The notes beneath the pieces are model-generated. The model was not told the DNA's origin. It was given only the letters and a program-made list of their open reading frames with translations, and searched no databases. Below, in pieces: positions 5,237-59,925 of a stretch of DNA of 64,000 bases. Location: contig JAANOX010000230.1 of assembly GCA_020184695.1 (NCBI GenBank), forward strand, positions 62,001 through 126,000, in the 5' to 3' direction. Position 1 is the stretch's first letter; the number at the start of each line of letters is the position of its first letter. Both the position numbers and the translations under genes were made by a program. This stretch comes from Histomonas meleagridis 2922-C6/04-290x. Its lineage: Eukaryota; Protista; Parabasalia.

Positions 5237-6964
5237 TTTAATTACACTAAAATGTTCATGATTCGCATTTGGGTAAAATTATGAAAATGTTTGGATTCAA
5301 ATTCCATAAAATTCTCATTAATTACATAAAATTTCATTCTGTTTGTGCATTGTTTTGTTTACTTGTTTACTTGTTTACTTACTTATGCAACTTTCACGTC
5401 GACTTTCACACGACCATCTTCTGATGTCGTAAATGTAACAATCGCTTTAACGAATTCTGATTCCCATTCATGAACTTTCTTCTTCAGTTCTTCCAATGTA
5501 CTTTCAACTTGACTCATATTCGATGGTGCAGAAACGTCAACAATAACAAATTGTGAAATCGCATCCATAGAATGATTAATTGGAATTTTTCATATTGTTC
5601 TTCTTTTGGCGTTGATTCTTGTTCTTATTATTATTTTTATCTTTCTTCAAACTTGCTATAAGTTTCTCGGCTTCTTTATTAGAACGTTTCGTGTGTTGAA
5701 CATTTTGTTGTTGTTTGTTCTCTTTATGCTGCGGATGTCCTTGCATTCCTTCAAGATATGTAATAAGTGATTTACCTGCTGCAATCTCTTTTTGATGTGG
5801 ATTTTCACGTTCTTTAATTTCTCCAATAAGTTTTTGACCTTCAAGAATTTGTAACATAGTACGTTCTGCTTCACGATAAATAACATCACGTTCATAATGA
5901 ATATCTGTGATTTGATTAAGTTTGTTTCGATATTCTTTAAGTAATTTACGATATTCATTTTTGGTCTTTACCTCGTTCTCCATTAATTCCATTTAATTCT
6001 TCACGAAGTTCTTTGATTTTATTATAATAAACTTGCACTTGATTATTATATTTCTTGGTTTCTTCACGAAGTGAATCAAGTTGTGTTCGTGTACTATTTC
6101 GTTTTTTTTATAATTCTCTAATTTGTGTTTGAACTTTCTTCTTTTCTTCATAAAGTTGATTAACACGTTTACGACAGTCATCATCTTCTTTAATAAGTTT
6201 ATCAGCACTTACTAACTCTTTTCATGACTGTGAAGATTCGGTCCCGTTCTGATCTTAATTTACGAAGTTGTGGGGATGTTAACGTTTCAACTTCAATACG
6301 ATGCTCAATTTGATCGATTTTTCGCAAGCGCTTCTTCCTGATTCTTAATACCTGATTTAGAACGAATGTCTCGAAGTTGAACTTGAAGTTTACTATGTTT
6401 ATCATTGTTTTCTTGAATGTCTTTCTCGATTTGTGATTTCTTTTCATAAAGTTCATTAAGACTACTTTGAATTTGATTAAGTGCATTAGGTGCTATACCT
6501 GAATGTTTACTAACATACGAATCTCGTTTAGCATACTCTTCATCAATCATATGACGATATGTATCAATATTACCTTTGATTTGATTAATACGTTTTTCAA
6601 GTTTTTCTAACTTAAGTGTATGATCTTTTTCTGAAGGTGCAACTGCTTCGCCAAGTTCATGAAGTTTTTCATTAAGTTCTTTAATCTTTTCACTTTGAAC
6701 TTCATTTAATTTAATTTGATCAATTGGTGTACGAAGTTGAATCCTTGGTCGACGTGGTTGTTGTGTTGGTTTATCTTCTTGTGTTGAACGTTTCTTATTA
6801 TTAACATTGTTGTTATTGTTGTTGGTAGAACGTCTTTCTTTGTTGTTAAATCCTTGCTTCCTTTGTTGTGTTTTTACTTTGGAATCCATAAGGTAAAAAG
6901 TAAAGCTATCTGGCCAAACTGTCAATAAGCGTTCAATTGTGGAAAAGTGTCATGTCGGTTAATG
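5237..6964 (-). repeat. Segmental duplication copy A (~1.7 kb) carrying the Bfr1-like gene
   Basis: Near-identical to 13767-15492 in the same orientation and to 8792-10455 inverted. Confidence 0.95.
5383..6889 (-). pseudogene. Bfr1-like coiled-coil protein, copy A, frameshifted (pseudogene or consensus error)
   Basis: Pieces MDSKVKTQQ...EALAK, ...NEYRKLLKEY... and MDAISQF...VKVA lie in different frames, with shifts at homopolymer runs. Bfr1-like motifs HRIEVETLT, PHQKEIAAGKSLITYL and VDVSAPSNMSQVESTLEELKKK. Confidence 0.75.
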
Positions 6965-8791: not shown

Positions 8792-10455
8792 CATTAACCG
8801 ACATGACACTTTTCCACAATTGAACGCTTATTGACAGTTTGGCCAGATAGCTTTACTTTTTACCTTATGGATTCCAAAGTAAAAACACAACAAAGGAAGC
8901 AAGGATTTAACAACAAAGAAAGACGTTCTACCAACAACAATAACAACAATGTTAATAATAAGAAACGTTCAACACAAGAAGATAAACCAACACAACAACC
9001 ACGTCGACCAAGGATTCAACTTCGTACACCAATTGATCAAATTAAATTAAATGAAGTTCAAAGTGAAAAGATTAAAGAACTTAATGAAAAACTTCATGAA
9101 CTTGGCGAAGCAGTTGCACCTTCAGAAAAAGATCATACACTTAAGTTAGAAAAACTTGAAAAACGTATTAATCAAATCAAAGGTAATATTGATACATATC
9201 GTCATATGATTGATGAAGAGTATGCTAAACGAGATTCGTATGTTAGTAAACATTCAGGTATAGCACCTAATGCACTTAATCAAATTCAAAGTAGTCTTAA
9301 TGAACTTTATGAAAAGAAATCACAAATCGAGAAAGACATTCAAGAAAACAATGATAAACATAGTAAACTTCAAGTTCAACTTCGAGACATTCGTTCTAAA
9401 TCAGGTATTAAGAATCAGGAAGAAGCGCTTGCGAAAATCGATCAAATTGATCATCGTATTGAAGTTGAAACGTTAACATCCCCACAACTTCGTAAATTAA
9501 TATCAGAACGTGATCGAATTTTCACAGTCATGAAAGAGTTAGTAAGTGCTGATAAACTTATTAAAGAAGATGATGACTGTCGTAAACGTGTTAATCAACT
9601 TTATGAAGAAAAGAAGAAAGTTCAAACACAAATTAGTGAATTATTACAAAAAAACGAAATAGTACACGAACACAACTTGATTCACTTCGTGAAGAAACCA
9701 AGAAATATAATAATCAAGTGCAAGTTTATTATAATAAAATCAAAGAACTTCGTGAAGAATTAAATGGAATTAATGGAGAACGAGGTAAAGAACAAAATGA
9801 ATATCGTAAATTACTTAAAGAATATCGAAACAAACTTAATCAAATCACAGATATTCATTATGAACGTGATGTTATTTATCGTGAAGCAGAACGTACTATG
9901 TTACAAATTCTTGAAGGTCAAAAACTTATTGGAGAAATTAAAGAACGTGAAAATCCACATCAAAAAGAGATTGCAGCAGGTAAATCACTTATTACATATC
10001 TTGAAGGGAATGCAAGGACATCCGCAGCATAAAGAGAACAAACAACAACAAAATGTTCAACACACGAAACGTTCTAATAAAGAAGCCGAGAAACTTATAG
10101 CAAGTTTGAAGAAAGATAAAAATAATAATAAGAACAAGAATCAACGCCAAAAGAAGAACAATATGAAAATTCCAATTAATCATTCTATGGATGCGATTTC
10201 ACAATTTGTTATTGTTGACGTTTCTGCACCATCGAATATGAGTCAAGTTGAAAGTACATTGGAAGAACTGAAGAAGAAAGTTCATGAATGGGAATCAGAA
10301 TTCGTTAAAGCGATTGTTACATTTACGACATCAGAAGATGGTCGTGTGAAAGTCGACGTGAAAGTTGCATAAGTAAGTAAACAAGTAAACAAGTAAACAA
10401 AACAATGCACAAACAGAATGAAATTTTATGTAATTAATGAGAATTTTATGGAATT
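8792..10455 (+). repeat. Segmental duplication copy B (inverted relative to A and C)
   Basis: Reverse complement of 5300-6964. Confidence 0.95.
8867..10372 (+). pseudogene. Bfr1-like coiled-coil protein, copy B, two +1 frameshifts
   Basis: ATG at 8867. An extra A near 9650 and an extra G near 10005 break an otherwise continuous ~500 aa ORF. Confidence 0.75.
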
Positions 10456-13766: not shown

Positions 13767-15492
13767 TTTTAATTACATAAAATGTTCATGATTCGCATTT
13801 GGGTAAAATTATGAAAATGTTTGGATTCAAATTCCATAAAATTCTCATTAATTACATAAAATTTCATTCTGTTTGTGCATTGTTTTGTTTACTTGTTTAC
13901 TTGTTTACTTACTTATGCAACTTTCACGTCGACTTTCACACGACCATCTTCTGATGTCGTAAATGTAACAATCGCTTTAACGAATTCTGATTCCCATTCA
14001 TGAACTTTCTTCTTCAGTTCTTCCAATGTACTTTCAACTTGACTCATATTCGATGGTGCAGAAACGTCAACAATAACAAATTGTGAAATCGCATCCATAG
14101 AATGATTAATTGGAATTTTTCATATTGTTCTTCTTTTGGCGTTGATTCTTGTTCTTATTATTATTTTTTTATCTTTCTTCAAACTTGCTATAAGTTTCTC
14201 GGCTTCTTTATTAGAACGTTTCGTGTGTTGTACATTTTGTTGTTGTTTGTTCTCTTTATGCTTCGGTTGTCCTTGCATTCCTTCCGGATTTGTGATAAGT
14301 GGTTTGCGTGCTGCAGTCTCTTTTTGATGTGGATTTTCACGTTCTTTAATTTCTCCAATAAGTTTTTTTGACCTTCAAGAATTTGTAACATAGTACGTTC
14401 TGCTTCACGATAAATAACATCACGTTCATAATGAATATCTGTGATTTGATTAAGTTTGTTTCGATATTCTTTAAGTAATTTACGATATTCATTTTGTTCT
14501 TTACCTCGTTCTCCATTAATTCCATTTAATTCTTCACGAAGTTCTTTGATTTTATTATAATAAACTTGCACTTGATTATTATATTTCTTGGTTTCTTCAC
14601 GAAGTGAATCAAGTTGTGTTCGTGTACTATTTCGTTTTTGTAATAATTCACTAATTTGTGTTTGAACTTTCTTCTTTTCTTCATAAAGTTGATTAACACG
14701 TTTACGACAGTCATCATCTTCTTTAATAAGTTTATCAGCACTTACTAACTCTTTCATGACTGTGAAAATTCGATCACGTTCTGATATTAATTTACGAAGT
14801 TGTGGGGATGTTAACGTTTCAACTTCAATACGATGATCAATTTGATCGATTTTCGCAAGCGCTTCTTCCTGATTCTTAATACCTGATTTAGAACGAATGT
14901 CTCGAAGTTGAACTTGAAGTTTACTATGTTTATCATTGTTTTTCTTGAATGTCTTTCTCGATTTGTGATTTCTTTTCATAAAGTTCATTAAGACTACTTT
15001 GAATTTGATTAAGTGCATTAGGGTGCTATACCTGAATGTTTTACTAACATACATGAATCGCGTTTAGCATACTCTTCATCAATCATATGACGATATGTAT
15101 CAATATTACCTTTGATTTGATTAATACGTTTTTCAAGTTTTTCTAACTTAAGTGTATGATCTTTTTCTGAAGGTGCAACTGCTTCGCCAAGTTCATGAAG
15201 TTTTTTTCATTAAGTTCTTTAATCTTTTCACTTTGAACTTCATTTAATTTAATTTGATCAATTGGTGTACGAAGTTGAATCCTTGGTCGACGTGGTTGTT
15301 GTGTTGGTTTATCTTCTTGTGTTGAACGTTTCTTATTATTAACATTGTTGTTATTGTTGTTGGTAGAACGTCTTTCTTTGTTGTTAAATCCTTGCTTCCT
15401 TTGTTGTGTTTTTACTTTGGAATCCATAAGGTAAAAAGTAAAGCTATCTGGCCAAACTGTCAATAAGCGTTCAATTGTGGAAAAGTGTCATG
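13767..15492 (-). repeat. Segmental duplication copy C
   Basis: Direct copy of 5237-6954. Confidence 0.95.
13913..15427 (-). pseudogene. Bfr1-like coiled-coil protein, copy C, multiple frameshifts
   Basis: Same protein pieces as copies A and B; indels at homopolymers near 15205, 15030-15050, 14940, 14365, 14165 and 14118. Confidence 0.75.
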
Positions 15493-49954: not shown

Positions 49955-50025
49955 AAAATTTGTATGAATTTTATTAAAATGATTTTATATATCAAAATAA
50001 TATTTGGAAATTATTTAAAATATTT

Positions 50026-50575
50026 AGAGCACTTATTTTAGAATCTGAAAATGGTCATACAGAAATAGTTAAATTACTTCTTGAACAAGAAAGAATTGAT
50101 GTTAATGCTAAAGATATTTATTTGCTTTATTTAATATTTATTTTAATAATTCTTTATTTCGAAATAGTATTTGGAAATTATTTAAATTATTTAAAACAGC
50201 ACTTATGTTTGCATCTTGGAATGGTCATACAGAAATTGTTAAATTACTTCTTGAACAAAAAGGAATTGATATTAATGCTAAAAATATTTATTTGTTTTAT
50301 TTAGTATTTATTTTAATAATTTTATATTTCAAAATAATATTTGGAAATTATTTAAATTATTTAGAACAGCACTTATGAAAGCATCTGAAAATGGTCATAC
50401 AGAAATCGTTAAATTACTTCTTGAACAAGAAGGAATTGATATTAATGCTAAAGATATTTATTTGTTTTATTTAATATTTATTTTAATAATTTTATATTTC
50501 AAAATAATATTTGGAAATTATTTAAATTATTTAATACAGCACTTATGTACGCATCTTATAAAGGTCGTAAAAAAA
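50026..50575 (+). repeat. Tandem 170-bp units, each one ankyrin repeat plus a conserved AT-rich spacer
   Basis: Unit starts at 50026, 50196, 50366 and 50536. Each encodes TALMxASxNGHTEIVKLLLEQxGIDINAKD and then 80 nt before the next TAL, so the period is not a multiple of 3. Confidence 0.9.
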
Positions 50576-50790
50576 TAGTTGGTTTAATTAAAAAGAAACT
50601 TGAAATAAATAATTCGTATAAAGTATCATTTAAATAACTTATATAAAGATGAAATAATAAGAAGAACTTAATTTTTTCATTAAGAATAATAGTTCTTGAA
50701 AAGGATTATTTTATATATTTCAAATATAATATTTTATTCATAAATTTCTCTCTGAGTAAATAAAATTTTCATAAATTATTTACTTATTCT

Positions 50791-53792: not shown

Positions 53793-54524
53793 TTAAAGGT
53801 TTAGCATATCCTCTAACGTGAAATCTGGTGTTGAAGCAAGAACTTCAGCATCAGTTTTTCCTTCAACATCTTTGTGAGTTGGAATTGGTGGGATTTTGTC
53901 AAGCTTTTTGATTCCTTTCTTGAAATTAGCTAAATATTCGGCTTCATTAGCTCTTGTTTGTGGTTGGCGAGCAGAATAATAGCAAAGAGAGCGAACTGGT
54001 TGCATACCACTAAATCTAAATCCAAAAGTAGTTGCAAATAGAACGCTATCAATAGGAGCAACCTTTTCAAATAACAATTTACCAGCACCAGTGGTGATGA
54101 TGCACATGATTTTCTTGCCACTAAGAAGACCTGATTCCATATTATGTGTTTTATCATATGCAAAGCCGAATGTGAAAACACGTTCAATATATGCATAGAA
54201 GCATGCTGGGAAACGGAAGTAGTACATTGGACCAACTACAATGACATGTGTAGCCCACTTAAGAAGTTCTTGTTGCTTTGTGATTTCTTCAACTAAATTG
54301 TTTTCTAATGCTTGGCTAGCTTGTGGTAAGAAATCGTCACCTTCAAAAACAGGGTGAACATAATCGTTAATGGAAATTGTTTTAAGAAATCCTTCAGACT
54401 TTAAATCAACAACTTTAACCTCATTGCCATCCTCAAGGAGAGATTCCTTAGCAGCGTTAGCAAGTCTGTAAGCTGTTGCATGGTTATTAGGGTCTTGATG
54501 AGCGATTAAAATTAGAACCTTCAT
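53793..54524 (-). CDS. NAD(P)H:quinone oxidoreductase, flavodoxin-like fold (Flavodoxin_2)
   Basis: MKVLILIAH, QQELLKWATHVIVVGPMYYFRFPACFYAYIERVF, GLLSGKKIMCIITTG. Confidence 0.9.
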   Translation of the reverse strand: MKVLILIAHQDPNNHATAYRLANAAKESLLEDGNEVKVVDLKSEGFLKTISINDYVHPVFEGDDFLPQASQALENNLVEEITKQQELLKWATHVIVVGPMYYFRFPACFYAYIERVFTFGFAYDKTHNMESGLLSGKKIMCIITTGAGKLLFEKVAPIDSVLFATTFGFRFSGMQPVRSLCYYSARQPQTRANEAEYLANFKKGIKKLDKIPPIPTHKDVEGKTDAEVLASTPDFTLEDMLNL

Positions 54525-54783
54525 GTGACAAAGTGACATAAAACGATACAAAATTGAATTGGACGATTCGCCGGGCCCTCAGAATTATGTTAAAATTTAG
54601 GTTAAAATTTTAAAGCCCACAAAATTCTGAGCCTCATTTATGGATTTGAACGGTTGACATTTTTGGATTCTGAATGGACTTTCCGATAGGAGAATTTGAA
54701 CCAATTTTTATCGGAAACCTTCATAGGTATTTTTAACGTATTCACAGTTAACATCATTAACACGATATATTAAACTCGAAATG

Positions 54784-54903
54784 CGATTTCCACCCATCGT
54801 ACATAGCGATCAACCTACAATTTTGATATTGTGGATATATAATATACATACATAGTTGCATCTATGATTAATAAAATACTAAATATAATATCATGATTAG
54901 CAC
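54784..54903 (+). repeat. Left arm of a ~120-bp inverted repeat (partner at 59102-59220)
   Basis: Manual alignment gives about 80% identity, including the identical block ATAGTTGCATCTATGATTAATA. Confidence 0.85.
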
Positions 54904-55094
54904 GAGATAAATTTATTCTTTCTTTCCAAATAGTGCCAAATATCGACTTTTGCATTAGTTTACATTAAACGATATGAGCTATGATAAGTGACGATATAAG
55001 AGAATTCGAATGACGGTAAATATTATTCAATATTTACTTTTTTCTTGTAATAATAAATATTTATCCACATCATTGAAATTTGCAAACAGCCAAA

Positions 55095-55412
55095 TTAAAT
55101 GATTCTTAGTTTGTTAAAAAATAAAAATATTGAAATTTTATCAACCGTACCAGCGGGGACATAAACTAGAGCCCATAATAATGGGATATCGACATCAGTG
55201 ATCATTTTTAAAGTAAAATTCTTTACTTTACGCATACCTTGGGTAGCGACGGCAGTGATAAGGGTGGTATTTACTTGATCACCTACGGCGCCGTCACCGA
55301 CACCTGTATTAAATGTAATGTTTCCTGAACAGTTATAAGTCTCATTAGAATACTTTACAGTTTTCAATGGACGTCCACGTGAATAACTACGTCTACGTAA
55401 CCTACGAGGCAT
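55095..55412 (-). pseudogene. cap: CRESS virus capsid, 3'-truncated
   Basis: MPRRLRRRSYSRGRPLKTVKYSNET...QGMRKVKNFTL...ALVYVPAGT, then runs into AT-rich host sequence at about 55141. Confidence 0.85.
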
Positions 55413-55425
55413 AACAATAAAAAAT

Positions 55426-55773
55426 TTAATGCTGTGGGAGATTTATTAATTGAGGGTGAATAAGATAAGAAGGAACATCCTTACGGCGACGATCATAACG
55501 GATGGCACCTATCGAGACTATTGGAAGTACAATAATCCAATTCTCAACCAACTGAGGATTCTCCTTAATAAAGCCCTTAAGTAGGCCAACGTTGCTGAAA
55601 TATATGGATTTAACTTGGCCTTCATTGTCTGGCATAAGGCATGGAGCAAGGAGTGTAAAAACTGGTGGAGGGATAGGGTACGGTTTTTCATCGTCTTCCG
55701 ACTGCATTGATTCGGGACAAATATTAGAGAAATCAAAATCATTGTCGCTAAAGCCAATCGAAAGAATCTTCAT
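55426..55773 (-). CDS. Viral accessory ORF of unknown function
   Basis: Intact ATG-TAA 115 aa ORF ending 13 nt before the cap ATG; composition like the other viral ORFs. Confidence 0.7.
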   Translation of the reverse strand: MKILSIGFSDNDFDFSNICPESMQSEDDEKPYPIPPPVFTLLAPCLMPDNEGQVKSIYFSNVGLLKGFIKENPQLVENWIIVLPIVSIGAIRYDRRRKDVPSYLIHPQLINLPQH

Positions 55774-56010
55774 ATTCCTTTGGACAAAAAAAATTAAAAT
55801 GATATTCCCACATTCGTGTCAAGTTAGGAACTTGCTTATGACATGTTACATGAAAAACTTTAACTTTACAACATGTCAATTGAATACTATATTAAAAAAA
55901 AAAGAATTCAATTAGAAAAATTTCAACGGTTAGAAAATGTATAAGATTCCAATTATATAATTATATTTCAATTGAAAATAAACGTCAATGAAATTAAATC
56001 ACTTTAAAGA

Positions 56011-56981
56011 ATGATTGGTCAGAGAAGAATCCAAGAATTACAAGGAGATCAACAGGAACAACAACAACAAATTAATCAAAGAGGTACAAGATGGATCTTT
56101 ACATGGAATCAGAACCCAGACAATTGGCAAGATTTTTTTAAAGCAGATTGGTTTGAAGAAAACATCAAATACTTAATTGCAGAACAGGAATTTGCACCAA
56201 CAACTGGTATGCCTCATATTCAAGGATATTTAGAAACAAAAACCAGAGTGTATTACAACACTTTTAGATCAAAAATTAATTGTTACTGGGCATTAGCAGT
56301 AGGTTCAAGATTGAAGAATTACAAATACTGCACCAAAACTAATCAACAAGTGCTTGAAATTGGAGAAAAACTATTGGTCAAACCATGGCGATTGAAAAAG
56401 ATCAGGAAAGAAATGAAATGTTGCAGGATTTATTGAAGATGAGCTGGGAAGAATTTGGATGGAAGTGGACAGCTCAAGCCTTACATATAAGAAACAAATT
56501 ATTGAAATGGAAATTTGATCATACTCCAGTCTTACCTCCATGGAATGGCGATTTCAAAACGAAGAATTATTGGATTTACGGTCCACCGGGTACCGGTAAA
56601 ACAAAATGGGCAAGAAGTCAAATGGACCCGGATAAAACATTCTTCAAATTACAAAATAAATGGTGGGAACATTATGATGACTTCCGCCATAAATTAGTCT
56701 TAATTGAAGATATGTCATTAGATAAAGCAAAATTATTAATAGACCACCTAAAGAACCGGTCGGATAGGTTCTGGTTCGCTGCTGAAATAAAAGGTGCAGC
56801 AATTAAAGCAAATCCTGGAAAGTGGTTCTTAATAGTTACATCAAATCATTCTATCGAAGATTGCTTAGGAAATAACAATGATGCTTTGGCCATAAAAGAA
56901 TAATTTATAGAGGTAAATGTAAATGATCCTAATGACATTTTTTTCCGAACTCAATCAAATTATAACATTTTGACTCAATAA
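56011..56981 (+). pseudogene. rep: CRESS Rep (HUH endonuclease plus SF3 helicase), frameshifted with premature stop
   Basis: Motif I WIFTWN, II PHIQGY, III YKYCTK; Walker A GPPGTGKT, Walker B LIEDM, motif C VTSN. Frameshift at about 56365-56385; TAA at 56901-56903, after which the frame continues FIEVNVNDPNDIFF...LTQ to 56981. Confidence 0.95.
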
Positions 56982-57134
56982 TAAGTTCCCTAAAATTATT
57001 TTTTAGGTACCTGGCACTTTTTGTAATTCCACTTTTTCTATATGGGCAAGTTTTCGGACATGTGATATGAAAAATGGATAATTACGATCAAAATGAATTG
57101 AATTTTGAAAATAAAGTATTCAATTCCAAAAATC

Positions 57135-57256
57135 AGGAGACCGTTAATGGACAAATTTATATTTTTCGCTAGGTAATAAGATTATGTCTGGAGGTACCAG
57201 TTAACGTCCTCCACAAGATAAGGACCTAGCGAAAAATTTTTATTCATAAACGTCCT
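57135..57256. other. Nested inverted-repeat structure downstream of rep (candidate origin or miniature element)
   Basis: Perfect 14-bp IR ATTTTTCGCTAGGT (57161-57174) / ACCTAGCGAAAAAT (57224-57237); inner TGGAGG / CCTCCA stem around CAGTTAAC; degenerate outer arms. Confidence 0.75.
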
Positions 57257-58284
57257 AAAATAACGGCATTTTGAATAGTAAAATTTAAATTTAACCCCCA
57301 CCCCTAGTACACTTTATACTGATCACCTGTCTACGCCCTTTTATAAAAAAAGTGCTCCGCGGAGTCGGGCTACGGCAGGTTTGTGATAAATGCACTCATT
57401 CGCCATTAGTACGTTTTTGCCTAAGTTGCTTTTCCAACCAAGGAAATACAGTTCCCAAATATCGAACAAACATTCTATGCCAAAAAATATGTTGAAACGA
57501 TATAATAGAAAAAGTCAAATGATAAACCGCTCCATATTGTCAAACACAAGTTTTTATATCCTCACGACGATATCGTCTCAACCGTTTTTGAGTTTACTAT
57601 ATAAAATGTGTTTATATTCTAATCATTTATTTTTTACGTAAGCTGAAGTAAAATACTACAAAATTAAAGAAGTTATGCTTAACATTGTTGAATAAATCTC
57701 ATAATATACAAGACAAAATTAATACAAAGAGAATAACAAGAAAATTACAAATAAAATTGATTTTTATAATTTTTTTTTCACAAAGGAAAACTTTACAATA
57801 GAAATTGTACAACGTTTTCTAAAGCATTAAACGAGTTATATGTTATTAAATTTTAACTTTTATAAAATTGTGATGGATCTCATTGATTTCTTTTTCTGGC
57901 AGATGATGTAACTTATTAAGTTATTATTAAATAAGGAACGTCTTTAGAACGCTTGAAGATATCGAATAAATTACATTATAACTGATATTATAAAAAAATA
58001 AATTTATCCAGTGTCACGTTGTCAGGAAATATTTTGGTTGACATTTTATACAAGTCACTTTACAACAAAATTTTTACATGTACTTCCATGAGTATATTTA
58101 TTCAAAAGTAAAATATTACAATGTATTTTGTGACTTTGATGATTTTCATAAGTTTGTGCGCTTATATTAACTTTTGTTTTGATATTTTCATTTTTATTGT
58201 CTTCTTTATACACTTGAAATTCGAGTCAGTTTTGTTCATTTGTAAAGCTATTTTCAGTGTTTATCGAAGGCCAAGAAGTAGCAT

Positions 58285-58752
58285 TCAGAGAAGAAGATGA
58301 GAGTTTTCTTTTGCACCTTTTTCAAGAAGTAGATTTTTTATAATGGTATAACCATTTTGATGTGCAATTTGAATTGCTGTCAAATATTATTAAAACATAT
58401 ACCAAATCATTAAAATATAAAAGTTTTTACATTAACATCAATTCCTTCTTTATCTAAAAGTAATTTTACTATTTCTGTGTTTTTAATTCTAACTGCTATA
58501 TGAAATGCTGTTTCAAATTATTAAAACATATTCCAAATTATTCAAATGAATATTTTTTGCATTAACATCAATTCCTTTTTGTTCTAAAACATATTTTACA
58601 AGTTCAATATTTCCTGATTCTGAAGCAAATAATAAAATATCTTTCGGAATTTGATTATTTTTTAGGAAATGTATTGCGAGATATAAATTTCCAAAATCCT
58701 TGTGTACTGATTCCAGGTGTGTTCTTAAGGTTGTACTCCAAACGGTCGCCAC
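58285..58752 (-). pseudogene. Ankyrin gene fragment with frame-breaking inter-repeat spacers
   Basis: ASESGNIELVKYVLEQKGIDVNAKN, then 40 nt, TAFHIAVRIKNTEIVKLLLDKEGIDVNVKT, then 41 nt, TAIQIAHQNGYTIIKNLLLEKGAKEN. Confidence 0.75.
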
Positions 58753-59101
58753 CGAAAAAATATTGTTGCGTTAATAAATCGATACACATTTATAATTTTA
58801 ATCTGTAAAATAAAAAAAAAACATTTATAATTATTAATGCTTTTTGTTAAATACCAAATTATTTTAATTTCAATTTTTTTATGATAGATAATCGATTTTA
58901 CTTTAAATTAAAAAGTTGAAAAATCTCTCTATTACATTTTTTAGAATTATATGATATATTTAAATTTTTTATTAATTTTGATTTATATATAAATCAGTTA
59001 ATATTGAGTACTATTCATTTTAAAATCAAAAAATCATGAAAATTGATATTGAAATATAATATTAACAAGCGAATAATGTCAGTTTTTGAAATTATAGAAT
59101 A

Positions 59102-59220
59102 GTGCCAATTATGATATTATTCTTAGATTCATATTAATCATAGATGCAACTATATATATATATATATATTCATGTTATCAAGATCGTAGGATGATCGCTA
59201 TATACGAATTGCAGAAATCG
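59102..59220 (-). repeat. Right arm of the ~120-bp inverted repeat (partner at 54784-54903)
   Basis: Reverse complement aligns to 54784-54903. Confidence 0.85.
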
Positions 59221-59925
59221 AAAGTCAATATTACATATATGTTTGAAATATAATATACATAAAATTTTGCCATTTTGAACCTCAAATATTTGTATGTATT
59301 AAGTTGTGGATACTTTGTGAATTCCTAATAATTATATAATGTGTAATATCTTTTGAAATACTTTAAATCAACCAAGAAATACTTTTTATAGATCATCTAT
59401 CATCCGTCTATCGTCACCTATCGGCGTATTGGACAAAAATAAACTATACAAAAGTGAAATATTGTCACTTTTAAAAATGAAAAAATAAATTTTTCTTGGC
59501 TTATTGTATAATATTATTTAGCATTTATAGTAAATCGAATATATTTATCACTTGTTCATTTTATTTTGCCATTATTTCATACGAAAATCATCCAATTAAC
59601 CAAATATTTCCAATGATAATTTAATTATTTGTAACTGGTATAAACTATAGTTTTTCCTATTTCAATCTTTGAAGTACCAATCGAAGAAATAAACCGAGAA
59701 ATCACGAACAAAATGATTATGTTATTAAGAAGTGTAACAAATGAATTTTCATTTTCAACATATTCATTAAAGATTTTAGATGATGAATATAAGAATGGAA
59801 ATGGTATTATGAATTGCCACGCTTTTTTCGATTCACTTTTTGTATGAATAAAATGACCGTTTAAAAAACAGAAAAAGTTTTTTCATGTGGCCGTTTAAAA
59901 TTTTAACGGACAGAAAACTTCGGAA

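What the first reader, a model, noticed from the sequence alone, without database searches (positions are those of the whole stretch)
55141..57390. Endogenous CRESS-DNA virus (kirkovirus-like) in a parabasalid chromosome
Seen: divergently arranged cap plus accessory ORF (minus) and rep (plus) with all HUH and SF3 motifs, flanked by clear host genes. From recall, the small capsid motifs KYSNET, RKVKNFTL and ALVYVP are typical of kirkovirus/Po-circo-like viruses, which published work has linked to parabasalid hosts. Inference: direct host evidence for a possibly new virus lineage. Having cap, accessory gene, rep and intergenic regions together allows near-complete genome reconstruction.
Basis: partly seen in the sequence, partly recalled or inferred. 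Interest (0 to 1): 0.9.

Follow-up and report, generated by a model that had tools for sequence, protein, structure and literature searches.

The report
Broken kirkovirus fossil in Histomonas genome
A 2.3-kb piece of a small circular DNA virus (half a coat gene, an accessory gene, a broken replication gene and a likely replication origin) lies between host genes of what is very likely the poultry parasite Histomonas meleagridis, where many such viral fossils were already reported in 2022.

Summary
Window 55137-~57400 is a cressdnavirus fragment: cap and accessory ORF (minus), rep (plus), then an origin-like stem-loop. It is defective and not near-complete. Cap stops at residue 92 of 170, Rep has one frame change and one premature stop (both confirmed by exact short-read contigs), and the downstream ORF of relatives is missing. 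The cap piece is 87-96% identical to 10 annotated Histomonas meleagridis Cap proteins, so the host is very likely that species. The closest named virus is Human fecal virus Jorvi2 (Rep pieces 49% and 59%, cap 45%, accessory 44%, same gene order); Po-Circo-like kirkoviruses are more distant. Unique parts have single-copy depth, an exact contig spans the left junction, and the accessory protein occurs on two long contigs; the right junction was not shown bridged. Kinsella et al. 2022 already reported 145 cressdnavirus elements in H. meleagridis, 102 Rep-like ones in Kirkoviridae, so host link and lineage are known. Added here: this copy pairs the common cap with a Rep far from the annotated intact one (AU p=9e-5), likely a Rep swap, and keeps a TATTAC stem-loop shared with gut kirkoviruses. 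The scan's earlier notes hold only other CRESS fossils in other genomes.

The parts
55137..55412 (-). 5' half of the capsid gene (residues 1-92 of a 170-aa jelly-roll capsid protein); cut off at the left end, frame runs on into flank to a stop at 55095
   Evidence: tblastn of 12 annotated H. meleagridis caps: 87-96% for the 10 of one cluster, 79% and 70% for two others; intact paralog P0117 folds as a beta-sandwich, pLDDT 84.6, best PDB hit nanovirus capsid 6s44
55426..55773 (-). Accessory ORF, 115 aa, open, function unknown
   Evidence: 44% over 59 aa to the ORF in the same position of Jorvi2, E 9e-14; hits in 4 of 162 loci; exact protein on 2 contigs in NCBI
55774..56010 (.). AT-rich spacer between the divergent genes (GC 23%); similarity to another copy ends at about 55972
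   Evidence: table 8, record 19
56011..56981 (+). Broken rep gene: HUH nuclease part (frame 1), frame change near 56365-56385, SF3 helicase part (frame 3) with a premature stop at 56901-56903
   Evidence: exact contigs without gaps over 55859-57321 (records 5, 7, 14)
57161..57237 (-). Likely replication origin: 14-bp perfect stem (57161-57174 / 57224-57237) with an inner hairpin and TCTTATTAC (57181-57173) at the 3' base of the loop
   Evidence: fold z -4.24, 0 of 200 shuffles; TATTAC-CT at the same place behind rep in 12 relatives; 7 of 12 stem pairs with two-sided changes in 10 sequences
57292..57305 (+). Conserved 14-mer TAACCCCCACCCCT of the viral intergenic region
   Evidence: exact in 11 of 162 loci, all among the closest Rep relatives; once in the window
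57306..57400 (.). Rest of the viral intergenic region; right end of the element lies at about 57400 (not mapped to the base)
   Evidence: summed depth falls from 46,691 (57180-57413) to 1,531 (57414-57647) in X1
54765..55136 (.). Host dispersed repeat abutting the cut cap; part of it has inverted copies at 59102-59240 (78%) and 59440-59526 (76%). Not viral as far as tested
   Evidence: high summed depth; no hit to 82 viral loci in six frames

Best explanation
This is a defective fragment of a kirkovirus-type circular ssDNA virus sitting in the chromosome of what is very likely Histomonas meleagridis, likely left by accidental integration of a replicating viral genome. Shown: gene content and order, the lesions, single-copy depth, the left junction. 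Inferred: the parent virus would replicate by rolling circle, Rep nicking the TATTAC in the stem-loop on the minus (cap-sense) strand, so rep lies on the complementary strand; a double-stranded form would have been joined to host DNA by ordinary break repair, since the ends do not lie at the origin and no target-site duplication was found; cap was cut during or after insertion next to a host repeat. The copy cannot replicate or make particles by itself. Its cap, accessory ORF and origin belong to a family with many related copies in this genome, while its Rep is rare and distant from the annotated intact Rep, which likely records whole-gene Rep swapping among kirkoviruses infecting this host.
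For: Rep, cap and accessory ORF all match Jorvi2 in the same order. Cap 87-96% identical to 10 named H. meleagridis caps; a host protein of the window is 93% identical to a named H. meleagridis protein. Unique rep contigs have depth 581 vs 627 for the host flank in X1 and 454 vs 493 in X2; X1 record 3 (54898-55229, no differences) spans the left junction. The exact accessory protein is on 2 contigs, longest 628,302 nt, the same length as for host neighbours P0011 and P0007. Origin stem-loop conserved with two-sided changes. Rep helicase piece only 37% and nuclease piece 48% identical to intact H. meleagridis Rep P0024, whose accession is consecutive with the 91%-identical cap P0117; AU test rejects the two as sisters for the helicase piece, p 9.3e-5. 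Summed depth is 35,000-106,000 over cap/accessory and 46,691 over the origin but 581-818 over 56010-56711 in X1. Published: 145 such elements in H. meleagridis assemblies and whole-gene Rep/Cap recombination in gut cressdnaviruses.
Against: The right junction was not shown bridged: the longest exact contig listed ends at 57321 and only 8 records per run are shown. X1 and X2 may be the source samples, so they are not independent of the assembly. Summed contig depth is not a copy number (tool's warning). In the nuclease-piece tree the window and P0024 lie in the same starred 12-row clade, so the distance from P0024 is clearest in the helicase half; the window's exact sister is unresolved in both trees. 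The host protein used as marker is 93%, not 100%, identical to the named one (a paralog or a sister species would explain this). The nonamer TCTTATTAC departs from the recalled NANTATTAC consensus at position 2, as do most of the Jorvi2-like ones. No whole genome was held, so other copies were seen only through proteins and laid contigs.
Confidence: 0.88

Rival explanations
1. The family spread inside the host genome after one or a few integrations (segmental duplication, repeat-mediated copying, or Rep-driven excision and re-insertion helped by an intact copy), and this copy got its odd Rep by recombination between endogenous copies rather than between free viruses.
For: Ten caps at 90% or more identity, four with consecutive accessions on one contig; the genome is reported as 20% duplicated; a host repeat abuts the cut cap and recurs inverted 4 kb away; the origin is kept.
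Against: Copies differ by 5-15% in DNA (tables 3 and 8), in the range seen among free relatives' caps; no target-site duplication or terminal repeat at the element's own ends; the inverted repeat pair is only 78% alike and has no duplication beyond low-complexity AT words; ends do not coincide with the origin.
Confidence: 0.2
2. Assembly chimera: a free virus or episome in the culture was joined to host contigs.
For: Right junction not shown bridged; both ends lie in repeated sequence.
Against: Single-copy depth equal to the flank in two runs, exact contig over the left junction, inactivating lesions confirmed in short-read contigs, same protein on two long contigs.
Confidence: 0.03
3. The Rep is a plasmid or transposon (Helitron, IS91-like) HUH protein and the 'cap' is unrelated.
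Against: PF02407 plus PF00910; the named ones among 74 homologs of the closest intact relative are mostly viral Reps or the H. meleagridis Rep; the partner ORF family folds like ssDNA virus capsids.
Confidence: 0.01

Closest known systems
Kirkoviridae endogenous elements of Histomonas meleagridis (Kinsella et al. 2022, PMC9615429)
   Same: Same host, same virus family by Rep affinity, Rep-like and Cap-like elements; caps up to 96% identical to annotated ones. This locus is likely one of the 145 reported.
   Different: The passages, section 8 and supplement parts I read give counts and trees, not the layout, lesions, origin or Rep/cap pairing of single loci. I did not match this locus to their scaffold list.
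Human fecal virus Jorvi2 (YP_009389529; NCBI lists it under unclassified Circoviridae)
   Same: Gene order cap-accessory (minus), rep (plus); Rep pieces 49% and 59%, cap 45%, accessory 44%; same origin stem-loop position and 14-mer.
   Different: Jorvi2 is a complete 3,925-nt genome with intact genes, a further 221-aa ORF and a 116-aa ORF; the spacer before rep is about 800 nt against 325 nt here.
Po-Circo-like viruses 21 and 51 / Porcine kirkovirus (Kirkoviridae, Rohanvirales)
   Same: Homologous small cap (43% and 36%), Rep helicase 38% (virus 21), TATTAC-CT behind rep in virus 21.
   Different: More distant; the 14-nt hairpin GGGCAA(N)TCTGCCC that papers give as their stem-loop is not kept here (only its first 8 letters recur, at 57044, without the partner arm); in virus 51 cap lies on the rep strand.
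Naryaviridae/Nenyaviridae of Entamoeba
   Same: Protist-infecting cressdnaviruses with small (171-180 aa) jelly-roll capsids; an Entamoeba-associated CRESS virus capsid is fold hit 5 (E 3e-8).
   Different: Cap only 20% identical; different host group.

Membership tests
Cressdnaviricota | Rep with HUH nuclease motifs I-III and SF3 helicase | tested here: met
   PF02407 and PF00910 above cut-off; six motifs located; arginine-finger position holds a stop, so the gene is a pseudogene
Cressdnaviricota | Single jelly-roll capsid protein | tested here: met
   Model of the intact paralog P0117 (91% identical to the window's piece): best PDB hits nanovirus, satellite virus and geminivirus capsids, E 2e-5 to 1e-4, TM 0.42-0.54; BFVD capsids TM 0.81. 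The window's own piece is truncated
Cressdnaviricota | Origin stem-loop with nonanucleotide | tested here: met
   14-bp stem, TATTAC core, conserved in 12 relatives; nicking itself not tested
Cressdnaviricota | Circular single-stranded genome in virions | not testable with these tools
   The element is a linear chromosomal fragment; no junction joining its ends was looked for in raw reads
Kirkoviridae | Rep groups with kirkovirus Reps in phylogeny | tested here: inconclusive
   Helicase piece lies among 53 rows with Po-Circo-like 21 and 51, Jorvi2 and H. meleagridis Rep, split from 19 other CRESS Reps at 100/96. Nuclease piece is in a starred clade with Jorvi2 and H. meleagridis Rep, but that tree does not join it to Po-Circo-like viruses. 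Outgroups were unnamed; no Nenyaviridae or Adamaviridae exemplars. Likely member, formal test incomplete
Kirkoviridae | Small capsid protein homologous to kirkovirus Cap | tested here: met
   43% to Po-Circo-like virus 21 capsid protein, E 3e-15; 36% to virus 51
Kirkoviridae | Genome of about 3-4 kb with 3-5 ORFs (PMC12892396) | tested here: inconclusive
   Three ORFs in 2.3 kb; the fragment is incomplete
Kirkoviridae | ICTV genus and species demarcation | not tested
   Ten genera are listed; the ICTV criteria were not found in the library
Endogenous viral element | Joined to host DNA at both ends, at host copy level | tested here: inconclusive
   Left junction bridged by an exact contig and depth single-copy; right junction not shown; present on two long contigs

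The most novel reading that the evidence does not exclude
H. meleagridis carries a young, partly intact and partly transcribed kirkovirus family in its chromosomes: one cap/accessory/origin backbone with interchangeable Rep cassettes, whose intact copies still express capsid and could excise or seed new circles. This locus would be a dead recombinant of a living endogenous virus pool, and cultured Histomonas would be the first laboratory system for kirkovirus biology.
Probability: 0.15. Interest if true: 0.65.

Novelty: already known. Interest (0 to 1): 0.24.

Why it matters
The main claim, that kirkoviruses infect parabasalid protists rather than the animals in whose faeces they are found, was made with these very kinds of elements in 2022, so this locus confirms rather than extends it. 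Two smaller points are useful: the conserved TATTAC stem-loop behind rep gives a better candidate origin for kirkoviruses than the 14-nt hairpin cited for Po-Circo-like viruses, and the same cap paired with very different Reps in one host genome is direct fossil evidence of Rep swapping inside one host species. The nearest named virus comes from human stool, where the predicted host Dientamoeba fragilis is in the same family (Dientamoebidae) as Histomonas.

Tried and rejected
No whole genome is held, so no genome-wide census. Direct pattern scan of viral contigs with the helicase piece found nothing; an alignment of relatives did. The look-up of the cap piece lacked the first Met, so its 'not in the collection' says nothing. 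Pfam has no family for cap or accessory ORF; PDB sequence searches found nothing useful. No Rfam match in 54500-59600. No target-site duplication at the element's ends (longest shared words 7 nt, A-rich) nor at the inverted repeat pair: a composite transposon 54765-59240 was considered and not supported. The canonical nonamer TAGTATTAC (recalled) with one mismatch matched only at 55055, in the host repeat; the true candidate was found by comparison with relatives. GGGCAAGT at 57044 resembles the Po-Circo-like hairpin but lacks its partner arm; rejected as origin. No RNA holder is listed on record; two guessed-RNA runs have no cover over 56010-56711, which is no evidence on expression. I could not link Jorvi2 to an accession in the paper's Kirkoviridae list: MF118166 is Tarto, and that NC_035212 in the list is Jorvi2 is my recall, unconfirmed. 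The wide structural search was not obtained.

Full report
Observation. The window is AT-rich eukaryotic DNA with compact genes. Between a flavodoxin-fold gene (53793-54539, PF02525 E 9e-38) and ankyrin scraps near 58.5 kb lie two minus-strand ORFs (ATG at 55412 and 55773) and, divergently, a rep gene starting at 56011. The nuclease part matches PF02407 (E 4e-11) and the helicase part PF00910 (E 1e-5), both above cut-off. Motifs I, II, III, Walker A, B and motif C were located. Rep is broken: all 13 intact relatives tried match in two frames with the change near 56365-56385, and one stop at 56901-56903 lies where relatives have the arginine-finger motif; homology goes on to the stop at 56979.

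Are the lesions and the insertion real? Nine runs were listed, eight holding the stretch or part of it, from two studies, all one coded organism. Four were laid. Contigs with no differences and no gaps cover 55859-56647 and 56618-57249 (X1) and 55859-57321 (X2), so both lesions are in the short-read data. Their depth (581; 454) equals that of the exact host-flank contig (627; 493). X1 record 3 (54898-55229, no differences) spans the left end of viral homology with 240 and 90 bases on the two sides. No listed record spans the right end at about 57400; only 8 records per run are shown, so this is open. X1 and X2 may be the source samples. Separately, the exact accessory protein is on two NCBI contigs, the longer 628,302 nt, the same length given for host neighbours P0011 and P0007, while P0006 and P0008 are on a 135,938-nt contig: the locus appears in two long assemblies.

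Host. A window protein is 93% identical over 187 aa to a named Histomonas meleagridis protein. Searching with the Jorvi2 cap found 'Cap protein [Histomonas meleagridis]' three times among the 120 listed of 557 hits; the first cluster has 10 named members. The window's cap piece is 87-96% identical to those 10 and 79% and 70% to the other two. The window's ribosomal S3-like protein has an exact copy on a 974,130-nt contig, the length of a contig bearing named H. meleagridis caps. The host is very likely H. meleagridis.

Closest viruses. Among 79 viral-contig loci, 3 cap-found loci and 80 metagenome loci, L001 is best for the nuclease piece and second for the helicase piece; its Rep is identical to that of Human fecal virus Jorvi2. 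It shares rep (49%, 59%), cap (45%) and accessory ORF (44% over 59 aa) in the same order. L002 and L003 are Po-Circo-like viruses 21 and 51, with cap 43% and 36%. Against Jorvi2 the element lacks the second half of cap, the 221-aa ORF behind it and a 116-aa ORF before rep; whether the Histomonas virus ever had the last two is unknown. The cap assignment was tested by folding the intact paralog P0117 with 98 homologs (pLDDT 84.6): best solved matches are nanovirus, satellite virus and geminivirus capsids, best predicted matches CRESS capsids. The cap family is large (134 representatives at E 0.001; Atlas hits are cressdnavirus capsid clusters, though with a low recognition score).

Trees. The two Rep pieces were placed separately. 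Helicase piece, 72 rows: nearest are P0001, P0013, P0016, P0015 and Jorvi2; it lies on the side with Po-Circo-like 21/51 and the H. meleagridis Rep, split from 19 other CRESS Reps at 100/96, but no starred small clade holds it. Nuclease piece, 46 rows (P0026 and P0029 dropped for long N-termini): in starred clades of 12 and 14 rows with Jorvi2 and the H. meleagridis Rep; the link to Po-Circo-like viruses is unresolved. Rows were my selection; outgroups are unnamed. Kirkoviridae membership is likely but not formally shown.

Origin. Behind rep is a perfect 14-bp stem (57161-57174 / 57224-57237) with an inner hairpin (z -4.24, 0 of 200 shuffles; best of 7 segments folded). On the minus strand TCTTATTAC sits at the 3' base of the loop. 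The same TATTAC-CT lies behind rep in 12 of the 20 kirkovirus-like loci examined, including Po-Circo-like virus 21, and at other places in two more; the 8-letter word alone is common (71 hits in the other 142 loci), so position and flanks carry the argument. In 10 aligned sequences (window plus 9 chosen for having the site) 92% of cells pair and 7 of 12 pairs change on both sides, against at most 2 in slid controls; most changes come from two related sequences. A 14-mer 121 bases on is exact in 11 of 162 loci. Papers on Po-/Bo-Circo-like viruses name a different 14-nt hairpin as the stem-loop. By analogy with other cressdnaviruses (own knowledge), Rep would nick within TATTAC, making the cap-sense strand the virion strand.

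One of many copies, with an odd Rep. Summed depth in X1 is 35,000-106,000 over cap and accessory ORF and 46,691 over the origin, but 581-818 over 56010-56711; one other copy about 85% alike covers 56618-57312. Depth is not a copy number, but with the 12 annotated caps it shows a family. A 2,098-nt contig from a guessed-RNA run matches 55143-55972 at about 90% and carries about 250 bases beyond the cap break and about 1,000 unmatched bases where rep lies here (record 19), as expected of a copy with a whole cap and a different rep. The annotated intact Rep P0024 has an accession consecutive with cap P0117; that cap is 91% identical to this one, that Rep only 48% and 37%, and the AU test rejects sisterhood of the helicase pieces (p 9.3e-5, 32 rows). 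This fits whole-gene Rep exchange, which the 2022 paper describes for gut cressdnaviruses.

Mechanism of insertion (inferred). The ends lie in mid-cap and in the intergenic region, not at the origin; no target-site duplication was found. A host repeat abuts the cap break and has 76-78% inverted copies 4 kb away. Capture by break repair, with loss of the cap end at or after insertion, is the simplest reading; spread inside the genome is the main rival for the family as a whole.

What is known. PMC9615429 (abstract, passages, section 8, supplement part 1 and searched rows; figures not seen): 145 elements in H. meleagridis assemblies, 104 Rep-like and 41 Cap-like, 102 in Kirkoviridae, used to confirm parabasalid hosts. 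It was the only paper with all three terms and the top one. Its per-element details may be in figure S4 or data files that I could not see. PMC8529796 (passages): genome paper; the searched words show no mention of viral elements. PMC12892396, PMC10654594, PMC9290044, PMC11945456, PMC12017068, PMC5989203: passages only. I found no paper describing this origin or the Rep/cap pairing of Histomonas elements in searches; the library lacks most subscription journals, including the ICTV family proposal. The scan's own notes had nothing on this sequence or genome and four CRESS fossils in other genomes.

Verdict. Real, defective, and of a published kind in a published host. Interest 0.24.

Noticed in passing
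P0209, P0207, P0211, P0213: Four H. meleagridis cap genes have consecutive accessions (KAH0803543-KAH0803546) on one 974,130-nt contig: a likely tandem cap array without rep in between.
   Followed up: no
L082:414-4688: Six tandem copies of a 795-nt unit holding only a kirkovirus-type cap (168 aa): perhaps a cap-only minicircle read as a concatemer.
   Followed up: no
window 54765-54962, 59102-59240, 59440-59526: AT-rich dispersed host repeat with high summed depth, in inverted copies on both sides of the viral piece and the ankyrin scraps; not assigned to a family.
   Followed up: partly
window 49978-50637 and 58100-58800: Ankyrin-repeat scraps in about 170-nt and 130-nt tandem units with extremely high summed depth (over 2 million in X1, about 4,000 times the flank): a hugely expanded repeat family.
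   Followed up: no
window 6305-6889, 8867-10372, 14188-15111: Three near-identical copies of one coiled-coil host gene, in both orientations and broken at different places: local duplication or assembly errors.
   Followed up: no
window 53793-54539 (-): Flavodoxin-fold NAD(P)H:quinone reductase-like gene (PF02525) next to the element, covered by exact contigs in both guessed-RNA runs; such genes in parabasalids are often of bacterial origin (recalled, untested).
   Followed up: no
L002:1168-1186 (-): Po-Circo-like virus 21 has CAGTATTAC followed by CT about 180 nt behind rep, apart from the 14-nt hairpin at 1320 that papers cite as its stem-loop; it may be the real nick site.
   Followed up: partly
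P0016, P0025: P0016 groups with P0015 in the helicase tree but with P0025 in the nuclease tree: likely recombination inside rep among gut kirkoviruses.
   Followed up: no
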